The notes under the pieces: model-generated
What the model was told of the DNA's origin: nothing
Databases searched by the model: none
The model's input: the letters and a program-made list of their open reading frames with translations, nothing else
Part shown: positions 16,653-57,969 of the stretch, piece after piece
Layout of the letters: every line of letters starts with the position of its first letter
Numbering within the stretch: the stretch's first letter is position 1
Position numbers and translations under genes: made by a program
Source: an uncultured Candidatus Saccharibacteria bacterium
Lineage (GTDB): Bacteria > Patescibacteriota > Minisyncoccia > Phycocordibacterales > DATDWN01
DNA: 64,000 nt
NCBI GenBank assembly: GCA_964603545.1
Contig: CAZRVD010000003.1
Coordinates: forward strand, 4,945-68,944
Reading direction: 5' to 3'

Positions 16653-17678
16653 TTACTGCGGGGTGTGCTCGTGTATCGCCACTGCACTCAAGAGGTCTTG
16701 AGTGAGTGGAATGAGCGGAATCTTACCGTAGGTCAGAAATTGGTCGAGTGGTACCCACCCGCTGATCCAGGCCTTCCGTGCCTTGACGATTGCCAGGACG
16801 GTGTCGAGGTTGACCACGCACATGTGGAACCGCGGATTCTCCCACTGATTCTTCTCCCTGTTCAGTGTGTACATGTTGCCGATGAAGTAAAACGAGGCGG
16901 TTGAGGCCGGCTCGATGTTCGTCCATCGGAACGGTGCGACTTCTCCTCCCCGAGTGAAGCCGATGACTTCCTTCTTGTTGAGGTTGAAGAGTACCATCAC
17001 GTCCGTTTCGGGCGTGAACATGTACAGCCACTCACAGGGGCCATCCGGAGCTGGCACGGTGCCTGTGACGGTATTCGCCGTCACCACGAGACCTGGAATC
17101 TCGAAGTCCGCATGAACCTGCTTGAGGCGTTCACACATCGCGATCGTTCCCGGAGGGCCTGCCGGACCTTGCGGACCAGTTGCACCGGGAACGCCCTGTG
17201 GACCCATGGGGCCAGCCGGTCCGGGAGGTCCCGGAGGGCCGGGTTCACCATTGACCTGGTTCAGAAACCAGATCACGTGCCCAACGTACGCTCCAGCTTT
17301 AAGCTGGGTCACGCCGTTGTTGAACACCGATTTGGTGATCACGTCAACTCCATTCACCTTTTCGATAGTGTAGACCCATGCGTCGACCAGTCCCGGTGAC
17401 ACCTGCTTGACGCTGATGTTGTGAAGAGCTCCGCCCACCACGTGGACGACCTTGCACTGCCCGATTCCGAGACGTGCCGTTGTCAGCACTCCGAGGGACT
17501 CAATGCGGTAACCTGCGTAGACATTGCTACGCAGATCCTCGCAGATTTGAACGACCTCATATGTTGGCACCCCTGAAGCGTCCTCACCGACGGCTGGAAC
17601 GTTGGCCTGGGCACCTTCGGCCAACAAGTTCATGCCCAGAAAGATCGCGAGCCAGAGAACTGCCTTTATCACCTTCAT
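16653..17678 (-). CDS. Secreted collagen-like triple-helix-repeat protein (signal peptide + 11 G-X-Y triplets + C-terminal globular domain), G+C-rich foreign gene
   Basis: Start at [25 protein letters not shown], preceded by [41 protein letters not shown] run. Composition is visibly G+C-rich versus flanks. Confidence 0.7.
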
Positions 17679-17753
17679 CACTTTCTTTCTCCCTTGCCAA
17701 CTTAATGGCTTTTTGCACTGCCGAAAATGGCAACACAAATCTGTTCTGTGCGC

Positions 17754-42068: not shown

Positions 42069-42147
42069 TAAGTGCAGGAATTCGTTGGTGTTGGTCTCCC
42101 CGAGGATGGGGTGAGACACTCTCGAATCTTTGACAGGGAGTACGCTC

Positions 42148-43047
42148 ATGACTCGACTGGTTCGGATTTTCGTCCTCGCCTTGGCGGTTACGCTGGTCGC
42201 CAGCACCGCAATGGCACAGAAGGGACAGTTCGTTGCTCCTGTGAATGCGGAACTCGACAAGTTCCCCATCTACAACGACGTGCTGACAGTGGCCCAGATG
42301 GCCAAGCACGAACTCACGGTGAAGGTTCTCACGGAGCCCACCGTCGTGCACAACCACTTCCGTGGCCTGCACGGCAAGGACGGGCGCTTCGTCCTGGAAC
42401 TCTTGCCCACCGGAACAATCGTGTTGGTGGACAAGGACGGTAGGATCCGCTACAAAGCGGACTGCGGGAATCGGCTGAGCGAAATGCCGCCGCCTCCCGC
42501 ACCCGTCTTGGGACCGGCGACACCCGTACCGTGCATCCCGGAAATTCTTCCGCTCGCTCCCAAACAGAGTGGGTGGTCGTGGTTCTGGGGTGGCATGTGG
42601 AATTTCCTTGCCTGGATCGCCAACGGTCTGGGCGGGTTGCTGGCAGGAATCTGGCACTGCCTGTGGTTCCTGCTGACCAGCATCGGCTGGCTGTTCCTCT
42701 TGGCGCTCATTCTGTGGTTGACATGGCGACTGTTGCGCTACCTCTTCGGAGGTAACCAGCAGAACAACGCCTGGGGAGGGGGCAACAACCCGCCTGCTCC
42801 AGTCGCACCGCTCGTCACACCGCGACAGACGGCGACGCCACCGCCGGCTCCGACACCTTCAGCAGTCGCCCCTTCGGCGATTCCTGTGGTGGCGGGACCG
42901 CTCACCACCCCCGATCGCTCTTTCCTGAACTTCAACCCAGGGGATGTGGGTCGTCCGGACATGCTGACGTGGGGCGGGCGGATCACTCCGCACTCCTACG
43001 AGGACCGGCCGGACGGGAGTCACGCACTCCGATTCTATCGGAGGTAA
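42148..43047 (+). CDS. G+C-rich foreign secreted/membrane protein (signal peptide, two central TM helices, Pro/Ala-rich C-terminal region)
   Basis: AGGGAG SD before the MTRLVRIFVLALAVTLVASTAMAQ start. The region is very G+C-rich. Confidence 0.5.
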   Translation: MTRLVRIFVLALAVTLVASTAMAQKGQFVAPVNAELDKFPIYNDVLTVAQMAKHELTVKVLTEPTVVHNHFRGLHGKDGRFVLELLPTGTIVLVDKDGRIRYKADCGNRLSEMPPPPAPVLGPATPVPCIPEILPLAPKQSGWSWFWGGMWNFLAWIANGLGGLLAGIWHCLWFLLTSIGWLFLLALILWLTWRLLRYLFGGNQQNNAWGGGNNPPAPVAPLVTPRQTATPPPAPTPSAVAPSAIPVVAGPLTTPDRSFLNFNPGDVGRPDMLTWGGRITPHSYEDRPDGSHALRFYRR

Positions 43048-48827: not shown

Positions 48828-49958
48828 TTATTTTAGTATCCCTATTTTATATGAAGCTATGGTACTAGTCGGTTTACTCTGTCCCTTATGCTGAGCTAGA
48901 AATCCTGCAGTAGCATCTACTCCACACATACTTTTTATAGCTTCTTGTCCTCCAGGATGCTGTGCTATCCAAGATGTTAAGTTATATACCCCACCAGAGA
49001 CTATTGACCAACAATCTGTTGATTTATTATGAACGGCAACCTGAACCAAAGTGTAACTTGCAATAGTAGGTGTAGGTGGAGTTACAGTAGTTGTGGTTGT
49101 AGAAGTTGGAGAAACAACTGGGGGAGTAACTACCTCGCCGCGGTCATCATCATCCTTGTCTTCATCTTCATCATTATCTCCCTCATCGTCATCAAGACCG
49201 TGATCTTTTTCAATTTCTTTTTGTTTACTTGTAGGTGTAGCTACCCTAACTGATGACATCATTATTATCCCGTTATCTCCAGAGCGACTCTTTTTTGATG
49301 TAAATATACTTGCAAATGTTGGGCTGTTGGAAGCACTGTTTGAAATAGTGACAAAAGCATCAAAGTGGTCGTCAATTTCTCTATCAAAATCTTGGGTTAC
49401 TTTTTCTGCCTTTTTTGTATTACCTTTCTTTTTTACCTTATCAATACTTTTATTTAACGCTTGAACTTTTTTAGAAAAGTTATTTTGTACAGTGACAGTT
49501 TGAACTTCTGTTAAACTTCCAGAACTACTCAAGGCCTCTACTTCGTCTAATCTAGCTGATACTTGCTTCAAATTAACATCCGCTTGTGATTCCGGTGTCA
49601 TAGCCAAAAGTGACTCAACATTTTCATTGATTCCAGTCTTAACTCCATATAAGGTATCTCCAGGTAGTGAACTTTGTGCATAATAACTTGTTCCAGTACC
49701 AAGAAATACAAGAAGAAGTACTAACGCCGGCATAATATATATTTGTCGAGATAAACCAAAAAAGTCATGAACTGTAATAGAACTTTTACGTGTTTTTGTT
49801 TCTCCAAAAGTAGAGGAGACTAACCCAGATTCAATATGTGAAATAATTCCGCCTTTAATTTTGGATTTTTCTTCCGCACTCAAAACAATACCCATTGCGG
49901 ATTGTGATATTTTTCCGATTAAAGCCTCTTCTTCGTTTGTAAATTTTTGTGGATCCAT
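48828..49958 (-). CDS. Putative anti-sigma factor: cytoplasmic N-terminus, one TM, extracytoplasmic domain, acidic linker and C-terminal cytochrome b5-like heme-binding domain
   Basis: Adjacent to and co-oriented with the ECF sigma. TM YIMPALVLLLVFLGTG. DDDEGDNDEDEDKDDDD linker. C-terminal WSIVSGGVYNLTSWIAQHPGGQEAI. Confidence 0.5.
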   Translation of the reverse strand: MDPQKFTNEEEALIGKISQSAMGIVLSAEEKSKIKGGIISHIESGLVSSTFGETKTRKSSITVHDFFGLSRQIYIMPALVLLLVFLGTGTSYYAQSSLPGDTLYGVKTGINENVESLLAMTPESQADVNLKQVSARLDEVEALSSSGSLTEVQTVTVQNNFSKKVQALNKSIDKVKKKGNTKKAEKVTQDFDREIDDHFDAFVTISNSASNSPTFASIFTSKKSRSGDNGIIMMSSVRVATPTSKQKEIEKDHGLDDDEGDNDEDEDKDDDDRGEVVTPPVVSPTSTTTTTVTPPTPTIASYTLVQVAVHNKSTDCWSIVSGGVYNLTSWIAQHPGGQEAIKSMCGVDATAGFLAQHKGQSKPTSTIASYKIGILK

Positions 49959-49959
49959 A

Positions 49960-50520
49960 TTATTCTAATTTAAATAATTCTCTTAGTTTGTTTATTCCGC
50001 GGTGGACGTGAACCGAAACCGTGTTCTCTGTTTCTCCTGTAATCTCTGCAATTTCGTGAAGCTCAAGACCTGAAACAAATCTCATAAAAACTGCTTCCCT
50101 GTAAACATCTGGAAGTTTTTCCAAAAGCTGTAGAGCTCTTTCTCCTTCAAGTCTATCATTTGCAGAGATTCCTTCTGGGGCTTCTGGACTAAACCCATCC
50201 TCTTCCAGAGAATCAAGCGAAACGGCCTTCTTCTTTCTATACTGATCTATGACGAGGTTGTTCATGGTTCTATACAAAAAAGCCCTCATGTTCAAAATGG
50301 TGTTGCCTTTTCCAATATAGTCCCAGGTTCTGACAAATGTATCTTGCAAGATATCCTTAGCAAGCTCCCTGTCGTGTACCTTGAAAAAACACTGCCTAAA
50401 CAAAGCGTCTGAATTATCATCATATGCCCGCAGAAAGTCCTGTTGCATCTTCTCTCTATTCATAGACGCTATATTATACCACTTATTACAGGTGTAGACA
50501 AAAATGGGCACCAAGCCCAT
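49960..50520 (-). CDS. ECF-type RNA polymerase sigma-70 factor
   Basis: Region 2 ILQDTFVRTW. Region 4 VYREAVFMRFVSGLELHEIAEITGETENTVSVHVHRGINKL. The true start is probably MNREKMQQ, around 50463. Confidence 0.8.
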   Translation of the reverse strand: MGLVPIFVYTCNKWYNIASMNREKMQQDFLRAYDDNSDALFRQCFFKVHDRELAKDILQDTFVRTWDYIGKGNTILNMRAFLYRTMNNLVIDQYRKKKAVSLDSLEEDGFSPEAPEGISANDRLEGERALQLLEKLPDVYREAVFMRFVSGLELHEIAEITGETENTVSVHVHRGINKLRELFKLE

Positions 50521-50532
50521 TTTTGTCCTTTC

Positions 50533-51495
50533 TTATATAGTTACTTCCAAAGGAGGAGTTACCTCTGTAGGTGGAGGTGATGGCTCAGGGTTTGGCTCTG
50601 GAATGACTGGAAGCACAACCTCATTTAAGACTGGAGTTTCTTCAGCAACCTCTATTACAGGGTCTGGAGGAACTTCAATAGTTTCAACTACCGAAACCCC
50701 TGGTTCTGTAACTGCCACTGGTTCTGGAGAGGGCTCTGTTTCCTTTATGACAGGTTCTGGTTGTTTTTCTAGAGTAGTTCCTTCTACCGTCGGTAGAACA
50801 TCTTCTACTATTGCTGGAACAACTAAACTCTCTACAACAGGAGGCGGAATATACGGAACAATAAATGTTATAGAAACTTTTTGTGTATCTCTATAACCCT
50901 TTCCAAATGGCACACCTGAGTTCCAACCCTTGTAGACCAGCTCCACCGTACAAGATTTGTCAGAAAACATCGTGTAGTCTGGCACAGACAAAGCCATGGT
51001 CCAAGGTCCTACTTCAGTTGTCGTTCCTGTATTTAGAGAAACTAACCCACCATCATATGGAAAGGGATACGTAGCAAACAAGTGAATAGTATTACACAAT
51101 TCACTGTCACCGTTTATCATCTCCGCCTTAACAAAATACTGTATAGGCTCACTATCCGAGTTTGGTGTCATAATCGGAGTGACAACAACCTCCCCCAAAC
51201 TCAAATCAACTTGAGCAGAATCCGCACTGTCGATTTCAACTTCAAAACCAATAGGATCCGCTCGCAAAAAGTTTCCTATCGTCTGCTCAACATCGTTAAA
51301 ATAAGAAATGGTATTTCCTACTGATGAAAGACTGAAAGAAACCAAAACTGAGACCAAGGAAATACTGGCGATTTTCAGACTAAATTTTTTAAACTGAAAA
51401 ACTTCAGTTTTATTTTCCTCTGGTCCAGAAGGTTTTAGTTGTTTCCTTCTAACTCCGTGGAATGGATATATTTCTTTGTTCAATTTGCTCCGCAT
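50533..51495 (-). CDS. SipW-cognate-type secreted protein with Pro/Glu/Val-rich C-terminal repeat region
   Basis: After the TM segment: SSVGNTISYFNDVEQTIGNFLRADPI matches the xFFSDxExSxGNxF SipW-cognate pattern. C-terminal PEPxP low complexity. Confidence 0.5.
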   Translation of the reverse strand: MRSKLNKEIYPFHGVRRKQLKPSGPEENKTEVFQFKKFSLKIASISLVSVLVSFSLSSVGNTISYFNDVEQTIGNFLRADPIGFEVEIDSADSAQVDLSLGEVVVTPIMTPNSDSEPIQYFVKAEMINGDSELCNTIHLFATYPFPYDGGLVSLNTGTTTEVGPWTMALSVPDYTMFSDKSCTVELVYKGWNSGVPFGKGYRDTQKVSITFIVPYIPPPVVESLVVPAIVEDVLPTVEGTTLEKQPEPVIKETEPSPEPVAVTEPGVSVVETIEVPPDPVIEVAEETPVLNEVVLPVIPEPNPEPSPPPTEVTPPLEVTI

Positions 51496-52012
51496 CTGTT
51501 TCTTTTTTATTTTTCAACTTACGAATCTCCGCCACTATCTTTCCTATTTCATCAACAATAATCACAAGCGCCGGAATTCCAACAAGGAGTGCAAAACCCA
51601 TGGGTTTTTTAGCAAAGTCTAAGACAAAACCTAAATAAGGAAGTGTGAAAACTACTTTGCCACTTATGTCACTTAGCCTTATTGGTGTTTGGTCTTCTGC
51701 ATCATTGGCATCCCCTTTTGTTGTAAATGTCCGAAGTGGTCCTGTGCCATCTATTTTCACAATACGATGGGTTGTAGGAATTTGGTCTTTCGTGTCCTTA
51801 CCAAAGGTCACCACATCATTTACCTCGTATGAACTAGACGGTCTTAGAACCACAACCCCGCCTGTTTTTATGTATGGCTCCATAGAACCAGACTTCACCA
51901 CTTTTATTTTGAAGTTGCCAGGGGTAGGCACTAGTGTTACCAGAAGTAACAAAGCAATAGCCACTATCCCCGCAACAAAAGTGTAGTAGATAAGATTGAG
52001 AAAGAATTTCAT
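51449..52012 (-). CDS. sipW: Signal peptidase I, SipW (archaeal-type, S26B) family
   Basis: N-terminal TM then VVKSGSMEPYIKTGGVVVLRP; a second TM at the C-terminus. Confidence 0.8.
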   Translation of the reverse strand: MKFFLNLIYYTFVAGIVAIALLLLVTLVPTPGNFKIKVVKSGSMEPYIKTGGVVVLRPSSSYEVNDVVTFGKDTKDQIPTTHRIVKIDGTGPLRTFTTKGDANDAEDQTPIRLSDISGKVVFTLPYLGFVLDFAKKPMGFALLVGIPALVIIVDEIGKIVAEIRKLKNKKETDAEQIEQRNISIPRS

Positions 52013-52030
52013 TTAGCTTTATTTACTCAG

Positions 52031-53392
52031 TTAGTTTTTAGCGTTAGTTATTGTACAAGTAATAGCTTCGCCTTCGTTTAGAACTATAGGAGTACTGGTA
52101 CTAGCTGGACATCCCACTCCAGTAATAGAGACAAAATGATAACCCACTCTACCTGTTTCGTTTATAAGATGTGGTGTGTTGGAAGTAACAGCAATAGATG
52201 CGCCCGTTGGAACTCCTACACCATCAACTCTTAGACCAAACAATGTGTTTGAGGCAAGTGGTGGAGTACCGGTTACGACTTTTATTAGAGTAATGTGTGC
52301 TGGAAGCTCTGTGTTTGTTATAACACAAGACTTCAGCTCATTTGCTCCAACATTTATATTCCCTTCAAAGTCACAATCCCCACTAAATGTAGCTTGATAT
52401 CCGTTTGAGCCAGCTTCACTTATGTTGTACAAACCTACTGGAACAGTTGTTGTTGCTCCAGAAGAAACTTCTGTAGAAACAAAACCATCATCAATAAAGT
52501 AATGGAAGTCTGTCACGGTATTGTTTCCGCCATTATTGTTTACAACAACTTTTGTTACAACAATTTTACCCATCTGTTGCACTACTGGTGGGACACATAG
52601 GAAATTTGGATTGTGCCTAGACTGAACCGCAGAAAACTTTACATCCGCAGTCAAACTATCTGTTTGAGTTGAATTGTTTAAGTTTGAGCCATCACAGACA
52701 ATACCTCCACTTGAGTTAGCTGGGGTTCTAGGTGAGGTAGAACCTAGTCCGTCTTGCACAAGTGCAGATTGACTAAGATTCCCAAAACACCATGCTTTGC
52801 CTATGTACAAAGTCTGTTCTCCAGGAACTGGCCCAGGAACTCCTGTCCATATGTTTGTACTGGAATCTGCTAGAGCCACAGTTGTTGAACCATTTAAACC
52901 AAGTGCCCCTATAGGTCCTTGAGAAATAACGTCCTCGTCATTCTCTAGAACATTATCCCCATCATCAGCCCACCATACGAAATTCACATTACTAGCAAGT
53001 TCGCCGTTTCCGGGACCATCACTAGCATCAACTTCTGCTTCCGGTTCATTTATTCCGTTATCATCATTTGAAGTCAGCTTAACGTTGGCACAAAGATATG
53101 AATCATTGTTGTCTACATGAAGAGAGATCGTGTCTTCTCCTAGATCTCCAGGTTTAACATCTGGAAAATCAAAAAACTTTTGAATAGTTAAGTCCGCCAT
53201 TTCCCATGTCGTACTAGCATTCAAAAATCCGTTGTAGTAGCTGTGATTGTCTATCATTAGGTCTATAGCTCCAGCAGTAAAAGTGTTTCCACTCGACAGT
53301 TCTCTGTCAGAGAAAAACGCACCTGTTCCACCTAGAACTAAGGCCGAACCAACAAACAAGATTAGAGCTGAACTTAGTAATATTCTTTTCAT
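52031..53392 (-). CDS. TasA/camelysin-like secreted protein with SipW-cognate signal peptide, paralog 1 (453 aa)
   Basis: MKRILLSSALILFVGSALVLGGTGAFFSDRELSSGNTFTAGAIDL. Confidence 0.7.
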   Translation of the reverse strand: MKRILLSSALILFVGSALVLGGTGAFFSDRELSSGNTFTAGAIDLMIDNHSYYNGFLNASTTWEMADLTIQKFFDFPDVKPGDLGEDTISLHVDNNDSYLCANVKLTSNDDNGINEPEAEVDASDGPGNGELASNVNFVWWADDGDNVLENDEDVISQGPIGALGLNGSTTVALADSSTNIWTGVPGPVPGEQTLYIGKAWCFGNLSQSALVQDGLGSTSPRTPANSSGGIVCDGSNLNNSTQTDSLTADVKFSAVQSRHNPNFLCVPPVVQQMGKIVVTKVVVNNNGGNNTVTDFHYFIDDGFVSTEVSSGATTTVPVGLYNISEAGSNGYQATFSGDCDFEGNINVGANELKSCVITNTELPAHITLIKVVTGTPPLASNTLFGLRVDGVGVPTGASIAVTSNTPHLINETGRVGYHFVSITGVGCPASTSTPIVLNEGEAITCTITNAKN

Positions 53393-53407
53393 TCCGTTTT
53401 CTGTTTA

Positions 53408-53443
53408 CCCCCGAACTAATTTTAGTAAATTCAGTTCTGGGGG
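53408..53443. repeat. Hairpin element CCCCCGAACTaattttagtaaattcAGTTCTGGGGG, copy 1
   Basis: Near-identical copies at 54905-54940 and 56793-56830; split copy at 56453-56471 / 56731-56749. Confidence 0.8.
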
Positions 53444-53459
53444 TGGATAATAATTTTAC

Positions 53460-54896
53460 CTAGTTAAGTGGACAATTTTCTGGAATAACAAACTGACCAA
53501 CCAAAGTTGAGTAAGCTGTGTTTGTTCCAGGATAAGCCCCGTTAAACATCGATATGACTTGTGCTTGGCTGTAAGGGAAGTCCAAACTGCCTGCGTTGAG
53601 TAGTGCTACCACCGTCTCTCTTCCAAGCTGATTTAATCCCCCACCACCCAGTTGCAAAACTTGTAACAAAGTTTTACCAGGAAAAGCGTTGTCGAAGACA
53701 GAAGAGTATAGTTGGTTCGGTGAGTAACCAGACCAGCTGTCAAAATGTTGACTTGCCTTCCAGTAACCATGTGAACAGTACTGGTTATTTTCTTCCTCAA
53801 CTTTAAGTTTATTTACAACTATAAATGTTTCTGTGGGATCATTAACAATAACTCCTAGACCCCCCGCGCCCGAAACATGTTCCCAGCCTTCCTGTAACAC
53901 CTCACTTATCTCATGAGTACCATAAGACACGCCAGTGAAAGCAACACAGCCATTTTGCAGAGTTACTCCAGAGTAATCCTCAATATTACCCGGTAGACCA
54001 TCATTTAAATTCAAGGTCCAACCAGAAAGAGGTTTACCTGTTTCATCTGTTTTACACAAAGTTACAGTTGATTTGTCTTCTTCTTCGTCATTTCCACAAA
54101 TAAACCCATCGTTACCCCTAGATTGAATCACAGAGAAAGTGACATCGGCTTTTACGCCGTCACTTTGAACTATGTTTCCTATTTCTTCACCTTCGCATTT
54201 AAAACCAGTTCCTCTTACTAGAGGTCCGTTGTTACCTGTTTTACCTAAACCATCTTGAGTTACTGGATAGTCCTGCATATCGCCAAAGCACCAGGCTTTA
54301 CCAATATACCTGACAGAATTTCCAATAAGCGGGTCATCACCTCCCCAAATGTTTCCATTTGAGTCAGCGATAGCCCAATTTTCTCCATTCCAAATATCTT
54401 TTACCAAACCTTTTTTGAATATTTTTTCTCCTATCTCATAAACATTATCTCCGTCGTCTGCCCAGAATTTGAAATACAATTTGTCTTGTAACTCACCACT
54501 GTTTTCTCCGGTGGTTACGTCCACAAGACTTTCTGGTTCATTCTGACCATTCTCTGGAGTGGCAGTAAGCAGTATATTCATACACGCCCAAGCATTGTTA
54601 TTGTTTACGTGAAGTGAAATAGTATCCTCTCCAATATCTCCTGGCTTTATATCAAGAAAGTTAAAGAAAAACTTACCCGCAAGCGGAGAAAGTTCCCAAG
54701 AAGTGGATGTGCTGTAAACCAGCTTGCCCCACTCGTTTGTTATATAACTTTCGTTGTCGATTTTTAGGTCGATAACCCCTGTGGCAAAAGTATTACCTGT
54801 GGACTTTTCTGTATCGGAGAGGTATGCTCCTGTACCAGTGGCCAGGATTGCTCCAGCAAAGATTATGGAAGTTATACTTAATAGTATTTTTTTCAT
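53460..54896 (-). CDS. TasA/camelysin-like secreted protein, paralog 2 (479 aa from MKKILLSITS)
   Basis: MKKILLSITSIIFAGAILATGTGAYLSDTEKSTGNTFATGVIDL. The longer ORF to 55007 reads through the upstream hairpin element. Confidence 0.7.
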   Translation of the reverse strand: MKKILLSITSIIFAGAILATGTGAYLSDTEKSTGNTFATGVIDLKIDNESYITNEWGKLVYSTSTSWELSPLAGKFFFNFLDIKPGDIGEDTISLHVNNNNAWACMNILLTATPENGQNEPESLVDVTTGENSGELQDKLYFKFWADDGDNVYEIGEKIFKKGLVKDIWNGENWAIADSNGNIWGGDDPLIGNSVRYIGKAWCFGDMQDYPVTQDGLGKTGNNGPLVRGTGFKCEGEEIGNIVQSDGVKADVTFSVIQSRGNDGFICGNDEEEDKSTVTLCKTDETGKPLSGWTLNLNDGLPGNIEDYSGVTLQNGCVAFTGVSYGTHEISEVLQEGWEHVSGAGGLGVIVNDPTETFIVVNKLKVEEENNQYCSHGYWKASQHFDSWSGYSPNQLYSSVFDNAFPGKTLLQVLQLGGGGLNQLGRETVVALLNAGSLDFPYSQAQVISMFNGAYPGTNTAYSTLVGQFVIPENCPLN

Positions 54897-54904
54897 TTTT
54901 TCTT

Positions 54905-54940
54905 GCCCCCGAACTAATTTTAATAAATTCAGTTCTGGGG
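54905..54940. repeat. Hairpin element, copy 2
   Basis: CCCCCGAACTAATTTTAATAAATTCAGTTCTGGGGG. Confidence 0.8.
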
Positions 54941-55051
54941 GTAACTTTCTAACCCACTTTCTTTGTTTGGTTGCGAAGCACGACTCTAGAGAGTTATGCC
55001 CCGCCACCTACAAAGATTAATGAGTTAGGAAAATTTTAGTTTAGAGTTCTA

Positions 55052-56434
55052 CTAATCAAATGTATTTGTAACAGTACATGTGATTGTATCCCCTGGGGTC
55101 AAAACAACTGATCCTGGGAAAGATGCTGGGCAAGAAACCCCCAAGAAGGATGTTCCTGTAACTGATGTTTGAGAATAACCAGCCACCAAAACTTCTTCGT
55201 CAAGTTCATGTGAAGCATTTGCGCTAACACCATTAGAAGATCCTGAAGTTACAATTCCACTATCGATTGATAGATCAAAGTCGTCTGGAGCAGATTCTCC
55301 CCCAACAACATTTTTAATTAAAGTAACTACTGGTTGAATATCATCATTAGTTATAGTACAGCTAGCAGCTCCCCCGGCTGGAACATTCACAGTTCCGTCT
55401 GATGCACAATCTCCACTAAATGTAGCAGAGTAACCAAACAGACCAGATTCACTCACTGTATGAAGACCAGCACTTGTTGTTGTCGCTACACCAGATGAAA
55501 TAGACATTGAATCAACAAAGAGTGGAAAGCCACCAACTACAGCTGTTCCACCATTATCATTTGTTACAACCTTAGTAACTGTAAGAGTTCCTGTTGTTGG
55601 CTCACCTTGTCTTTGTACACACTGGAAGTTTCCATTGTTTCTAGACTGAACAGCTCTGAAAGCAACGTTTGCTGTCAAACTGTCTGTTTGTGCAGTATTG
55701 CCAACTTGTGAACCATCACAAGTAAATCCTGTTCCAACTGTAAGAGGACTTCGTCCTACATCTGCGCCATTGTCTTGAGCAACTGGGTTTGGCGTAATTG
55801 TTCCAAAGCACCATGCTTTACCAACGTACCTTACAGATGCTCCTGGTACTGGACCACCTTGTAATGTCCAAATGTTATAAACAGAGTCAGCTAGTGTAAC
55901 AGTTGTTGTTGCACCTATTGCAAGAGCTCCTAAAGGACCGCCTTGTAGCAGGTTCTCCCCTGTTTCCAAAACGTTGTCTCCATCGTCAGCCCACCAAGCA
56001 AAGTTTACTTGCTGTGCTAGTTCACCTCCGTTTGGATCATTTGTTATATCTCCATCTTCTGCTTCTGGCTCAACAAGAGTGTTTTCATTGTTAGATGTAA
56101 GTGTTACATCAGCACAAAGGTATGAATCGTTGTTGTCCACGTGTAGAGAGATAGTGTCTTCGCCAATGTCTCCAGGTTTTAAGTCACTGAAGTCAAAAAA
56201 CTTCTCAATTGTTAAATCTCTCATTGTCCAAGTTGTCCAAGGACTAGCTACAAGCTGTCCTGTAGATGTACTTGTAACATAACTCGTATTATCTATCTGC
56301 AAATCAATAGCTCCAGCAGCCAAAACATTGCCTACTGAAGTTTCACTATCACTGAAAAAAGCTCCTGTTGCTGTTATAGCCATCGCCGCAACAAAAACAA
56401 CCACTCCTAAACTCATTAATATTTTTCTATTCAT
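55052..56434 (-). CDS. TasA/camelysin-like secreted protein, paralog 3 (460 aa)
   Basis: MNRKILMSLGVVVFVAAMAITATGAFFSDSETSVGNVLAAGAIDL. Confidence 0.7.
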   Translation of the reverse strand: MNRKILMSLGVVVFVAAMAITATGAFFSDSETSVGNVLAAGAIDLQIDNTSYVTSTSTGQLVASPWTTWTMRDLTIEKFFDFSDLKPGDIGEDTISLHVDNNDSYLCADVTLTSNNENTLVEPEAEDGDITNDPNGGELAQQVNFAWWADDGDNVLETGENLLQGGPLGALAIGATTTVTLADSVYNIWTLQGGPVPGASVRYVGKAWCFGTITPNPVAQDNGADVGRSPLTVGTGFTCDGSQVGNTAQTDSLTANVAFRAVQSRNNGNFQCVQRQGEPTTGTLTVTKVVTNDNGGTAVVGGFPLFVDSMSISSGVATTTSAGLHTVSESGLFGYSATFSGDCASDGTVNVPAGGAASCTITNDDIQPVVTLIKNVVGGESAPDDFDLSIDSGIVTSGSSNGVSANASHELDEEVLVAGYSQTSVTGTSFLGVSCPASFPGSVVLTPGDTITCTVTNTFD

Positions 56435-56452
56435 AATTAATTTTATTTTTTA

Positions 56453-56749
56453 CCCCCGAACTAATTAGGACTTAAGACTCTTACTTATCCTCCTTTTCAA
56501 ACCACCTAAAGACCTACCGTGCTCCTTGAGCATTTTCTCTCTATGTGTGGCGTCTTCCCTTAGTTTATATGCTTCGTAATATATCAACTCAAATGGCTTT
56601 CGTAATTTGGTTGATGTACTCTTACCCGAATTATGTTCTTCTATTCTCCTCTTGAGATTATTTGTGTATCCGGTGTAAAGATTTCCATCTTTCTCACTTT
56701 TTAAAATATACACATAGAACATAATTCAAAGTCCTAATTAGTTCGGGGG
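56453..56749 (-). mobile_element. GIY-YIG nuclease gene inserted into the loop of a hairpin element, bounded by 19-bp inverted repeats CCCCCGAACTAATTAGGAC
   Basis: Left arm 56453-56471, right arm (reverse complement) 56731-56749. The interior 56465-56722 encodes the GIY-YIG protein. Confidence 0.5.
56465..56722 (-). CDS. Small GIY-YIG domain nuclease (UPF0213/YhbQ-like, 85 aa)
   Basis: MFYVYILKSEKDGNLYTGYTNNLKRRIEEHNSGKS. Confidence 0.8.
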   Translation of the reverse strand: MFYVYILKSEKDGNLYTGYTNNLKRRIEEHNSGKSTSTKLRKPFELIYYEAYKLREDATHREKMLKEHGRSLGGLKRRISKSLKS

Positions 56750-56792
56750 TTGATTAATTTTTATAATACTTTTTATAATTTTGTTTACTTTA

Positions 56793-56830
56793 CCCCCGAA
56801 CTAAATTTTAATAAATTTCAGTTCAGGGGG
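56793..56830. repeat. Hairpin element, copy 3 (intact, upstream of the TasA-like array)
   Basis: CCCCCGAACTAAATTTTAATAAATTTCAGTTCAGGGGG. Confidence 0.75.
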
Positions 56831-57257
56831 TCGACCTTCTCTTCTCAAACTAAGCCCTTGGAATTCGCAAATAATTACAAAAACAAAAAGAGCTGTCTCT
56901 GTTGTAATATTAAAATTACTGCAGAGATAGCTCTTTTGCGTGTTCCAAGTGGTTTGTTTCAAGAAAAGTAACTAACATCTTTTCTAACTTACTTAAGAAC
57001 TAATTTATATCTTGATCTAAACCAAGATAAAGTTCATCGTATCACGCTGTTTTTTTATCAAAATAATAAATACTAAAAAAGTGTATAACTTGTGGAGAAC
57101 AAGTGTAAAACTCTACAAATATGAGTGAAAAAACGTGAAAATATAGTAAAATTTGACAAAATTTTAAAAAATTGAAAAACAAAAAATACCTTGACCAAAT
57201 TGAGATTTACAAAAAACTACACCATACTTGTGTAGCTTTTTGTAACCTATTGAGTAT

Positions 57258-57288: not shown

Positions 57289-57969
57289 CTATTGTGACAA
57301 AGTTGTGAAATTTCTTTCTGTACTCGTTGCACTGTTACCTCTTTCGTCAGTAATTTTTATCATGTAGTAGTATGTCGTGCTTGTGGAAAGGCCGGGAAGA
57401 TTTACAGAGTGTGTAAAGCTTAAATTATTTACAAAAAAATTTGCGGGTGAGGTAGAGGCTACTGGGGTGGTGTTGCTATACCAAAATTCTGACTTTACAT
57501 TTTTGTTTGCTGTCCAGAAAACATATCCTCGTGTTGGAGAATTGCTAGATGACTCAATTACAAACAACTGTGGTGTCACTATATAGTTGGTGGCCATTGC
57601 AAATAAGCTGTTTTTAGAAATTTTGTTCAGAAGTTCTCTAGTTTTTGGACCAACAATTCCGACTACCTCTAGGCCATTTTCCCCTTGTAGCTTCTTTATT
57701 GCCCGCTCTGTCAAAGTGCCAAAATAGCCCGTAATAAGGCCTTCTGGATATATGTTTGGCACCTTTGAAAGCTGTGACTGTAGAACCTTAACAGCATCCC
57801 CGCGTGAACCAAGCCGCAGACTAGGTGTAGGATTTGGCGGAGTATCCACCAAAGCCACCGTAGCCCCAGCCGTCTGCACTACAAAAAGCCCAGCCAAAAC
57901 CAAACCAAATATTGAAAAAGTTTTTTGTCTCATACTAAAATTATACCAATTTTCCACCAGAATAATCAA
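57289..57969 (-). CDS. Secreted protein with peptidoglycan-binding (PG_binding_1-like) domain and Ig/FN3-like C-terminal domain
   Basis: LRLGSRGDAVKVLQSQL...GYFGTLTERAIKKLQGENGL. Probable start at MRQKTFSIFGLVLAGLFVV, around 57933. Confidence 0.55.
   Translation of the reverse strand: MIILVENWYNFSMRQKTFSIFGLVLAGLFVVQTAGATVALVDTPPNPTPSLRLGSRGDAVKVLQSQLSKVPNIYPEGLITGYFGTLTERAIKKLQGENGLEVVGIVGPKTRELLNKISKNSLFAMATNYIVTPQLFVIESSSNSPTRGYVFWTANKNVKSEFWYSNTTPVASTSPANFFVNNLSFTHSVNLPGLSTSTTYYYMIKITDERGNSATSTERNFTTLSQ

What the first reader, a model, noticed from the sequence alone, without database searches (positions are those of the whole stretch)
50533..56434. SipW-type signal peptidase with four SipW-cognate (TasA/camelysin-like) secreted paralogs: a probable fibre or sheath assembly locus
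An S26B/archaeal-type signal peptidase (VVKSGSMEPY motif) is immediately followed by three tandem 450-480-aa paralogs whose N-termini match the SipW-cognate class signal (GTGAFFSDxExSxGNxFxAGxIDL). It is preceded by a fourth protein with the same cleavage-region motif plus a long Pro/Glu/Val-rich repeat tail. In Bacillus, SipW-TasA builds amyloid-like biofilm fibres. The proteins here are about twice TasA's size with beta-rich C-terminal regions. In a reduced-genome, possibly episymbiotic organism this could be a surface-fibre or attachment system that is not described.
Basis: partly seen in the sequence, partly recalled or inferred. Interest (0 to 1): 0.7.

Follow-up and report, generated by a model that had tools for sequence, protein, structure and literature searches.

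The report
TasA-like surface fibre operon, Parcubacteria
An ultra-small groundwater bacterium (Parcubacteria) carries a five-gene operon that most likely builds a TasA-type protein fibre on its surface; the kind of system is known, but this version, common in its lineage, has extra cross-linked domains and has not been studied.

Summary
On the minus strand, 56434..50533 is one five-gene unit. It has three TasA-family paralogs (460, 478 and 453 aa), an archaeal/ER-type SipW signal peptidase, and a 320-aa protein (P5) with the same cleavage-region motif and a Pro/Val/Glu tail. A terminator hairpin closes the unit.

Profile searches support the SipW class (TIGR02228 103.8 bits, cut-off 51.85; invariant Ser43/His82). 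Each paralog passes TIGR04088 or PF12389.

All 77 related loci from species-representative genomes are Patescibacteria. The order TasA-like genes, SipW, P5-like is kept in nearly all loci. In 20 of the 80 loci examined, SipW and P5 are fused into one protein.

Best reading: SipW cleavage exposes a donor strand, the subunits polymerise by donor-strand exchange, and P5 acts like TapA. Polymerisation is inferred, not shown.

This is a new variant of a known kind. It is auto-annotated as "TasA family", and I found no characterisation of it.

The parts
55052..56434 (-). parA: TasA-family subunit, 460 aa. Signal peptide 1-25 (predicted SipW cleavage A25|F26), donor-strand-like segment 26-~40, beta-sandwich 45-263, CnaB-like domains 281-365 and 369-459.
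53460..54896 (-). parB: TasA-family subunit, 478 aa. Same N-terminal motif and beta-sandwich, one CnaB-like domain, then a different ~107-aa C-terminal Cys-bracketed domain (C..GYWK..HFDSW..GGGGL..LGRxTVxALLNA..CP) of unknown function.
   Evidence: TIGR04088 24.3 bits, PF12389 23.6 bits. The C-terminal domain has no Pfam hit. It also occurs as stand-alone small secreted proteins or lipoproteins and on TasA-like proteins in L007, L052, L054 and L062.
52031..53392 (-). parC: TasA-family subunit, 453 aa, same architecture as parA (beta-sandwich plus two CnaB-like domains). It has the canonical form found next to SipW in most related loci.
   Evidence: TIGR04088 19.5 bits, SpaA_2 29.4 bits. Best hit of the family profiles in the window. 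The N-C1-C2 architecture is seen in 55 locus proteins.
51449..52012 (-). SipW-type (ER/archaeal-type, S26B) signal peptidase, 187 aa, with N- and C-terminal membrane helices. Ser43, His82, Asp101 and Asp107.
   Evidence: TIGR02228 103.8 bits (cut-off 51.85); NF046067 Bacillus SipW equivalog 114 bits, below its cut-off of 190. Invariant residues in 76 aligned sequences. Hydropathy peaks at 1-19 and 138-156.
50533..51495 (-). P5: 320-aa accessory protein. Basic cytoplasmic N-terminus, membrane helix 39-57, motif GNTISYFNDVEQTIGNFL, Ig-like beta-sandwich 84-213, disordered Pro/Val/Glu tail 225-320. Proposed TapA-like donor-only nucleator or anchor.
50497..50527 (-). Terminator-like hairpin (GACAAAAATGGGC-ttggt-GCCCATTTTTGTC) 5 nt after the P5 stop codon. 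It marks the 3' end of the unit. It is followed by a promoter-like site (TTGTCT-17-TATAAT, 50501..50473) for the ECF sigma gene.
54906..54941 (-). Stem-loop ACCCCCAGAACUG..UUAGUUCGGGGG in the leader of parB.
   Evidence: dG -16.8 kcal/mol, z -4.1. The TTAGTTCGGGGGT motif occurs 5 times in the window against 0.09 expected.
53407..53444 (-). The same stem-loop in the leader of parC.
   Evidence: dG -18.2 kcal/mol, z -3.5. Alignment of the leaders.
56792..56831 (-). The same stem-loop upstream of parA. It is now separated from parA by a 340-bp GIY-YIG cassette that duplicated its 3' arm.
   Evidence: dG -19.4 kcal/mol, z -3.9. Repeats D3 and I1.

Best explanation
This is a dedicated operon for a TasA-superfamily, chaperone-free, donor-strand-exchange surface fibre in a Parcubacteria (Patescibacteria) bacterium.

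Proposed mechanism. Each of the three subunits is exported by Sec with a SipW-class signal peptide. The co-encoded ER/archaeal-type peptidase SipW cuts after A25 (T-G-A|F-F-S-D). This frees an N-terminal segment (about 26-37, FFSDxExSxGN) that is disordered in the monomer. That segment inserts as a beta-strand into the beta-sandwich of the next subunit, as in B. subtilis TasA. Each subunit would carry one or two CnaB-type Ig domains on the fibre; these domains are predicted to be locked by internal Lys-Asn isopeptide bonds and disulfides. P5 has the donor-type motif but lacks the acceptor LKPGD/GED region, so it would play the TapA role: it supplies the first strand and/or ties the fibre to the envelope through its Pro-rich tail.

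Shown here: the peptidase class and its catalytic residues; the paralogy; the motif and its profile support; the folds; the conserved triads; the conserved gene order; the SipW-P5 fusions.

Inferred: cleavage by SipW at A25|F26; polymerisation by strand exchange; isopeptide formation; the role of P5; any function in attachment.
For: Peptidase class and residues.

Signal and motif. hhalign to TasA aligns the TasA cleavage site A27|A28 with parA A25|F26, and the TasA donor strand 28-38 with parA 26-37. The TasA residue numbering was checked against PMC9674648.

Monomer model: residues 21-40 have pLDDT below 50, although this segment is among the most conserved in the family (T23, D29, E31, S33, N36, G41, I43, D44 and L45 are invariant in 98 sequences). 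BsaA monomer models show the same behaviour (PMC11580942).

Triads: K-E-N triads sit on the first, middle and last strands of each CnaB-like domain. They are kept in 118 of 123 and 114 of 117 domains, and the rare exceptions lose several triad residues together.

Gene order: 76 of the 80 loci have SipW directly after a TasA-like gene. P5-like follows SipW in 45 loci, mostly overlapping it by 4-47 nt, and is fused to SipW in 20 loci with a consistent three-helix topology.

P5: it keeps T, D, E, G and N of the donor motif but has gaps at K86-E92.

Operon boundary: a terminator follows P5.
Against: No multimer prediction or experiment was possible, so strand exchange is not demonstrated.

The subunits have no recognised cell-wall anchor (no LPXTG, no C-terminal helix). 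P5 would also lose its membrane helix if it is cleaved, so how a fibre would stay on the cell is unknown.

P5 alone reaches no curated threshold.
Confidence: 0.65

Rival explanations
1. The paralogs are SipW-processed surface adhesins or matrix proteins that do not polymerise. They would be monomers or small oligomers that display CnaB stalk domains, and the conserved N-terminal motif would be only a peptidase recognition element.
For: The only sequence-level link to TasA is the signal/cleavage region. CnaB domains are typical stalks of Gram-positive adhesins. C. perfringens BsaB, a TasA-like paralog, forms only dimers (section heading in PMC11580942).
Against: Conservation extends about 20 residues beyond the predicted cleavage site and covers exactly the segment that is the donor strand in TasA. 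A donor-only partner (P5), and in other loci paralogs that lack only the donor segment, fit a polar polymer better than a set of monomers. The beta-sandwich matches the fibre form of TasA.
Confidence: 0.2
2. The proteins form an S-layer or sheath (a two-dimensional coat) rather than a fibre.
For: Multiple Ig-like domains and acidic DDGDN-type loops that could bind Ca2+ are also common in S-layer proteins (general knowledge). The S-layer proteins of CPR bacteria are unidentified (general knowledge).
Against: No S-layer anchoring domain such as SLH was found. The closest structural relatives are linear fibre subunits and pilins, not lattice proteins. Every characterised member of the TasA superfamily read for this report forms a filament or tubule by donor-strand complementation (PMC12518558).
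Confidence: 0.07
3. The proteins are camelysin-like (Peptidase_M73) secreted metalloproteases.
For: The Pfam family name only.
Against: None of the four proteins has an HExxH motif. The family name is regarded as a likely misidentification of CalY (PMC11580942). The fold is a beta-sandwich without a protease-like match.
Confidence: 0.02

Closest known systems
B. subtilis tapA-sipW-tasA operon (TasA biofilm fibres; donor-strand exchange, PDB 8AUR)
   Same: A dedicated ER-type SipW peptidase sits in the operon. The SipW-class signal and the homologous post-cleavage N-terminal segment are shared. The subunit has a beta-sandwich. There is a smaller accessory protein with a donor-like N-terminus (P5 versus TapA).
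   Different: There are three large subunit paralogs instead of one. Each carries one or two C-terminal CnaB-type domains with K-E-N triads and eight cysteines. The gene order is subunits-sipW-accessory. The accessory protein has a Pro/Val/Glu tail and is fused to SipW in about a quarter of related loci. Sequence similarity to TasA stops after ~50 residues. The Bacillus SipW equivalog model is not reached (114 bits against a cut-off of 190).
C. perfringens sipW-bsaA-bsaB-bsaC (BsaA 'exchange-and-lock' fibres with an intermolecular Asn-Lys isopeptide; PMC11580942)
   Same: A SipW operon with several TasA-like paralogs. The N-terminal loop is disordered in monomer models. An Asn in the donor segment (N36) and a Lys in the acceptor body (K86) are almost universally conserved.
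   Different: The candidate catalytic acid (E92) lies after the Lys, not before it as E56 does in BsaA. Its proximity to K86 and N36 could not be checked. There is no vWA protein (BsaC) here. The CnaB domains are fused to the subunit rather than encoded on neighbouring proteins.
Archaeal TasA-superfamily filaments (AbpA bundling pili, AbpX, cannulae CanA, Sulfolobus threads; PMC9245690, PMC12518558)
   Same: Chaperone-free donor-strand complementation of jelly-roll or Ig-like subunits. Tandem TasA-like paralogs are frequent, and a signal peptidase I gene is often adjacent. An acidic loop in this family (WWADDGDN) could bind Ca2+ as in cannulae; this is inference only.
   Different: This is a bacterial (Patescibacteria) lineage. 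The similarity to those archaeal families was not tested directly here.
Sortase-assembled Gram-positive pilins (Spy0128, SpaA, RrgB)
   Different: There is no LPXTG sorting signal and no YPKN pilin motif. No sortase is among the products of the locus, all seven of which were scanned, or of the six flanking genes scanned. Polymerisation would be through the TasA-like N-terminal domain instead.

Membership tests
ER/archaeal-type signal peptidase I (MEROPS S26B; SipW class) | Matches the archaeal-type model above its curated cut-off and the bacterial P-type model below its cut-off | tested here: met
   TIGR02228 103.8 bits (cut-off 51.85); TIGR02227 26.4 bits (cut-off 47)
ER/archaeal-type signal peptidase I (MEROPS S26B; SipW class) | Catalytic Ser (SGSMEP) paired with His instead of the P-type Lys, plus conserved Asp residues | tested here: met
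   S43, H82 (THR), D101 and D107 are invariant in 76 aligned sequences. The roles of these residues follow published SipW mutagenesis, cited from memory.
ER/archaeal-type signal peptidase I (MEROPS S26B; SipW class) | Orthology to Bacillus SipW (NCBIfam equivalog NF046067) | tested here: not met
   114.1 bits against a cut-off of 190. Same class, but not an equivalog.
ER/archaeal-type signal peptidase I (MEROPS S26B; SipW class) | Cleaves the co-encoded substrates | not testable with these tools
   Supported only indirectly, by gene adjacency in 76 of 80 loci and by the SipW-P5 fusions
SipW-cognate signal class (TIGR04088) | Model score at or above the cut-off of 19 bits | tested here: inconclusive
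   parB 24.3 and parC 19.5 pass. parA and P5 give no reported hit even at E<=10. The P5 homologue P0131 passes at 20.0; P0122 scores 16.3.
TasA/camelysin family (Pfam PF12389) and TasA superfamily | Pfam gathering score (22.5 bits) | tested here: inconclusive
   parA 24.8 and parB 23.6 pass; parC 21.2 does not. The matches cover only profile positions ~4-53 of 196. 91 of 98 family members hit at E<=0.01.
TasA/camelysin family (Pfam PF12389) and TasA superfamily | Jelly-roll/beta-sandwich subunit fold like TasA | tested here: met
TasA/camelysin family (Pfam PF12389) and TasA superfamily | The N-terminal donor strand complements the next subunit, forming a fibre | not testable with these tools
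   Only monomer prediction was available. Indirect support: the segment is homologous to TasA 28-38, disordered in the monomer model and highly conserved.
CnaB-type isopeptide domains (Pfam SpaA_2/SpaA) | Domain model above its cut-off and a CnaB fold | tested here: met
CnaB-type isopeptide domains (Pfam SpaA_2/SpaA) | Lys (first strand), Glu/Asp, Asn/Asp (last strand) triad | tested here: met
   K288/E329/N363 and K374/E413/N457 lie on the expected strands. The triad is kept in 118 of 123 and 114 of 117 domains. Bond formation itself cannot be tested here.
Sortase-dependent pilins | C-terminal LPXTG sorting signal and pilin motif | tested here: not met
   No LPXTG-like motif followed by a hydrophobic tail, and no YPKN motif
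BsaA-type 'exchange-and-lock' subunits | Asn (donor strand), Lys and Glu (acceptor) triad forming an intermolecular isopeptide | tested here: inconclusive
   N36 and K86 are near-universal. N36 and E92 co-vary (176/2 versus 9/16, Fisher p 1e-15), but this is confounded by one paralog class. The geometry was not checked.
TapA-like nucleator (for P5) | An N-terminus that mimics the subunit donor strand, encoded with sipW | tested here: met
   Motif and hhalign E 6e-5; conserved position after SipW or fusion to it. Homology to TapA itself was not tested, and P5 has no Pfam hit.

The most novel reading that the evidence does not exclude
Paceibacteria build a sortase-independent, covalently reinforced heteropolymeric pilus. 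SipW, often physically fused to its own substrate P5, would act as the assembly start site. P5 would donate the first strand. The subunits would then chain by donor-strand exchange and be locked by an intermolecular N36-K86 isopeptide, as in BsaA. Specialised subunits (parB with its unknown C-terminal domain; in other genomes, donor-less cap subunits) would end the fibre and bind the host cell. If so, this would be a second major class of CPR surface filament beside type IV pili, and a candidate organelle for episymbiotic attachment.
Probability: 0.2. Interest if true: 0.8.

Novelty: new variant of a known kind. Interest (0 to 1): 0.55.

Why it matters
Patescibacteria (CPR) are a large, mostly uncultured share of bacterial diversity, and they appear to live attached to hosts. 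The one recent perspective checked here (PMC11665869) mentions type IV pili and predicted surface adhesins and contains no occurrence of 'filament', 'appendage' or 'S-layer'.

This locus is a concrete second candidate. It is conserved in at least 346 matches in species-representative genomes, and the N-terminal domain family spans about 1,900 clusters at 50% identity. It combines two otherwise separate ways of building tough extracellular fibres: TasA-type strand exchange and pilin-type isopeptide-locked CnaB domains.

The natural SipW-substrate fusions give unusually direct genomic evidence that a signal peptidase is committed to one assembly pathway. They also give an easy experimental handle, namely autoprocessing.

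The claims can be tested with multimer prediction, heterologous expression and cryo-ET of groundwater enrichments.

Tried and rejected
- Sequence searches of the PDB with parA and with the 98-sequence family profile found nothing relevant. The link to TasA beyond residue 50 therefore rests on fold comparison only.
- The fold of P5 matched only generic Ig-like sandwiches (PorA N-terminal domain, pilus subunits and chaperones, macroglobulin domains). No specific assignment is possible, and TapA was not among the top 60 matches.
- The parB C-terminal domain has no Pfam match and no named homologue.
- I considered whether the ECF sigma factor, the DUF5667/cytochrome-b5 anti-sigma-like protein and msrA/msrB downstream belong to the system, and rejected it. 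A terminator and a separate promoter lie between P5 and the sigma gene. In L002 and L003 about 8 kb of other genes intervene.
- I considered programmed frameshifting to join SipW and P5 in this genome, and rejected it. P5 is in the +1 frame and there is no X_XXY_YYZ slippery site in register. Overlapping separate genes are the rule in related loci.
- I searched the 80 fetched loci for the intergenic hairpin and found no matches. It is specific to this genome.
- I rejected the camelysin protease and sortase pilin readings because there is no HExxH and no LPXTG/YPKN.
- The N36/E92 covariation looked like evidence for a BsaA-type lock, but it is explained largely by one paralog class that lost the whole donor segment. 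I left it as inconclusive.
Full report
**What is in the sequence.** The interval 50533-56434 holds five ORFs, all on the minus strand. In the direction of transcription they are:
- parA, 56434..55052, 460 aa
- parB, 54896..53460, 478 aa from MKKILL
- parC, 53392..52031, 453 aa
- a 187-aa signal peptidase, 52012..51449
- a 320-aa protein here called P5, 51495..50533, which overlaps the peptidase gene by 47 nt

parA is 54% identical to parC and 40% to parB. P5 aligns only weakly, at 22%. A regex for the shared motif, and a profile of the paralog N-terminal domain, hit exactly these four ORFs in the 64-kb window.

A strong hairpin with a T-run (50527..50497) lies 5 nt after the P5 stop. It is followed by a promoter-like site and the likely true start (ATG at 50463) of an ECF sigma gene. 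The five genes therefore form one unit. The sigma factor, the anti-sigma-like DUF5667/cytochrome-b5 protein and msrA/msrB downstream are a separate module. In relatives L002 and L003 they lie about 8 kb away, behind other genes.

parA is 100% identical to CEO12_182, parC matches CEO12_180 (P0056) and P5 is 100% identical to CEO12_178, all of 'Parcubacteria group bacterium Gr01-1014_46'.

**The peptidase.** It matches the archaeal-type signal peptidase I model TIGR02228 at 103.8 bits (cut-off 51.85). It fails the bacterial-type model TIGR02227 (26.4 bits against 47). It resembles Bacillus SipW (NF046067, 114 bits) but stays below that equivalog's cut-off of 190. In an alignment of 76 sequences (the window's enzyme plus 75 homologues from related loci), S43 (SGSMEP), H82 (T-H-R), D101 and D107 are invariant. 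This is the Ser/His/Asp pattern of ER-type (S26B) enzymes, not the Ser/Lys pattern of LepB. The residue roles come from published SipW mutagenesis, cited from memory. Hydropathy shows N- and C-terminal membrane helices.

**The three paralogs.**
- Profile support. TIGR04088 (SipW-cognate signal) scores parB 24.3 and parC 19.5 (cut-off 19). PF12389 (Peptidase_M73, the TasA/camelysin family) scores parA 24.8, parB 23.6 and parC 21.2 (cut-off 22.5), but only over the first ~50 residues. Of 98 aligned family members, 91 hit PF12389 and 96 hit SpaA_2.
- Model. An AlphaFold2 model of parA built on that alignment has mean pLDDT 83.7. It shows a signal helix (3-21), a segment at 21-40 with pLDDT below 50, a beta-sandwich (45-263), and two Ig-like domains (281-365 and 369-459) with pLDDT above 90.
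- Limits. Sequence-only PDB searches find nothing. hhalign of the family against B. subtilis TasA aligns only residues 1-49 (E 3.3e-5, probability 72%).
- What the alignment shows. It places the TasA cleavage site A27|A28 on parA A25|F26. It places the TasA donor strand (residues 28-38) on parA 26-37. That is exactly the segment that is disordered in the monomer model yet among the most conserved in the family: T23, D29, E31, S33, N36, G41, I43, D44 and L45 are invariant. BsaA monomer models show the same behaviour (PMC11580942).

**Features beyond TasA.** Each CnaB-like domain carries a Lys on its first strand, a Glu on a central strand and an Asn on its last strand: K288/E329/N363 and K374/E413/N457. 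Across the related loci the triad is intact in 118 of 123 and 114 of 117 domains. The few exceptions have lost two or three triad residues together. This is the signature of the self-forming Lys-Asn isopeptide of pilin CnaB domains, which is established knowledge for that family. Each paralog also has eight cysteines, and the four in the N-terminal domain are invariant. There is no LPXTG, YPKN or HExxH motif. These proteins are therefore neither sortase substrates nor metalloproteases. An invariant acidic loop (WWADDGDNxxExxE) could bind Ca2+, as seen in cannulae (PMC12518558); that is inference only. parB replaces the second CnaB domain with a ~107-aa Cys-bracketed domain. This domain has no Pfam match and also exists as small stand-alone secreted proteins or lipoproteins.

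**P5 and the fusions.** P5 has a basic N-terminus, a membrane helix (39-57), the motif GNTISYFNDVEQTIGNFL, a confident Ig-like sandwich (84-213) and a disordered tail (P 23%, V 21%, E 19%). The tail is compositionally biased, not a tandem repeat. Profile-profile comparison with the paralog family gives E 6e-5 (probability 65%) over the signal, the motif and the first strands. P5 itself reaches no TIGR04088 threshold, although its homologue P0131 does. When aligned to the paralog profile, P5 keeps T23, D29, E31, G35 and N36 but has no counterpart of the LKPGDxGED acceptor region.

I examined 80 loci: 77 from species-representative genomes (all Patescibacteria) and 3 fetched by protein look-up. 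L002 and L046 are the same contig.
- SipW directly follows a TasA-like gene in 76 loci.
- A P5-like gene directly follows SipW in 45 loci, usually overlapping it by 4-47 nt.
- In 20 loci, SipW and P5 are one ORF of 356-731 aa.

The fusions have three hydrophobic segments: SipW helix 1, SipW helix 2 and the P5 helix. The SYFxDxE motif follows the third helix. This topology puts both the catalytic domain and the P5 cleavage site outside the membrane. It is strong genomic evidence that P5 is a partner, and probably a substrate, of SipW.

**Mechanism proposed.**
1. The subunits are exported by Sec.
2. SipW cleaves at A25|F26 (T-x-S|Y in P5).
3. The freed N-terminal strand inserts into the sandwich of the next subunit, as in TasA (PMC9674648). 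This forms a fibre decorated with isopeptide- and disulfide-locked CnaB domains.
4. P5, which can donate a strand but not accept one, nucleates and/or anchors the fibre as TapA is proposed to do.

Only the components and their conservation are shown here; every step of assembly is inferred. In other genomes, the last paralog before SipW is a short class that has lost exactly the donor segment but keeps K86. This suggests a polar fibre with a donor-only end and an acceptor-only end, like the tip and terminator subunits of chaperone-usher pili. The window lacks that class. However, parB's odd C-terminal domain is found on members of that class in L052, L054 and L062, so parB may be the specialised subunit here.

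A BsaA-type intermolecular lock is possible. N36 and K86 are near-universal, and N36 co-varies with E92 (Fisher p 1e-15). The covariation, however, is carried by that one paralog class, and the geometry could not be checked.

**Comparison and novelty.** The system works like tapA-sipW-tasA of B. subtilis and sipW-bsaABC of C. perfringens. It belongs to the TasA superfamily as recently defined, which also includes the archaeal AbpA, AbpX, cannulae and threads. It is not an equivalog of any of them.

NCBI already labels homologues 'TasA family protein' or 'SipW-dependent-type signal peptide-containing protein'. Wang et al. 2022 list Patescibacteria among the phyla with PF12389. Full-text searches found no paper that describes the locus in Patescibacteria. 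The CPR perspective I checked mentions type IV pili and predicted surface adhesins and has no occurrence of 'filament', 'appendage' or 'S-layer'.

The new elements are the fused TasA-CnaB subunit architecture, the conserved multi-paralog/SipW/P5 operon across Paceibacteria, and the SipW-P5 fusions. The N-terminal domain family has 1,918 clusters at 50% identity at E<=1e-3. I rate the finding a new variant of a known kind, of moderate interest.

Noticed in passing
window 56465-56722 (- strand), with repeats at 56449-56473, 56729-56750 and 56789-56804: An 85-aa GIY-YIG nuclease ORF (Pfam 67.8 bits) lies immediately upstream of parA. It is bracketed by a perfect 22-nt inverted repeat and a 16-nt direct repeat (TTTACCCCCGAACTAA). 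It looks like a small mobile GIY-YIG cassette that inserted into the leader hairpin of the first fibre gene and duplicated the hairpin's 3' arm.
   Followed up: partly
window 56792-56831, 54906-54941 and 53407-53444 (- strand): A near-identical stable stem-loop (ACCCCCNGAACUG-loop-UUAGUUCGGGGGU; -17 to -19 kcal/mol, z -3.5 to -4.1) precedes each of the three paralog genes, about 10-30 nt before the start codon. The 13-mer occurs 5 times in the window against 0.09 expected. It is absent from all 80 related loci. It may be an mRNA processing, stability or translation-control element that sets subunit ratios.
   Followed up: partly
Related loci such as L014 9480-10970, L021 1544-3175, L004 12416-13984 and L067 10833-12323: In 20 of 80 loci, SipW is fused in one ORF to the P5-like protein. 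The fusion has three membrane segments and retains the SYFxDxE motif. This is a signal peptidase fused to its presumed substrate.
   Followed up: yes
Related loci such as L011 2999-3883, L036 9477-10379, L044 5254-6087 and L071 1177-2064: The last TasA-like gene before SipW in many genomes is a short class (~280-390 aa). It lacks the donor-strand segment (position 36 is not Asn) but keeps the LKPGD Lys. E92 is replaced in 16 of 25 cases. It could be an acceptor-only cap or anchor subunit. The class is absent from this window.
   Followed up: partly
window 53463-53783 (- strand; parB residues 373-479): A Cys-bracketed ~107-aa domain (C-x-x-GYWK-x-x-QHFDSW ... GGGGL ... LGRxTVxALLNA ... CP) has no Pfam match. 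It also occurs as stand-alone small secreted proteins or lipoproteins (P0133, P0146) and at the C-terminus of TasA-like proteins in L007, L052, L054 and L062.
   Followed up: partly
window 48828-50463 (- strand): An ECF sigma factor is followed by a membrane protein that combines DUF5667 with a C-terminal cytochrome-b5-like haem domain, and then by msrA and msrB. This may be an oxidative-stress module with a haem-sensing anti-sigma factor. The same arrangement is seen in L002 and L003.
   Followed up: no
window 16653-17738 (- strand) and 42130-43047 (+ strand): There are two G+C-rich islands (0.48, against about 0.36 for the window). One encodes a 361-aa protein with a collagen-like Gly-X-Y stretch (Pfam Collagen 25.9 bits, just below its cut-off). 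The other encodes a 305-aa Pro-rich membrane protein with a signal peptide and no family match.
   Followed up: no
window 57289-57969 (- strand): A 226-aa secreted protein with a PG_binding_1 domain and a purple-acid-phosphatase-N-like (FN3-like) domain lies upstream of the fibre operon. A similar gene sits upstream of the operon in L002. This is conserved synteny, and a possible link to the cell wall.
   Followed up: no
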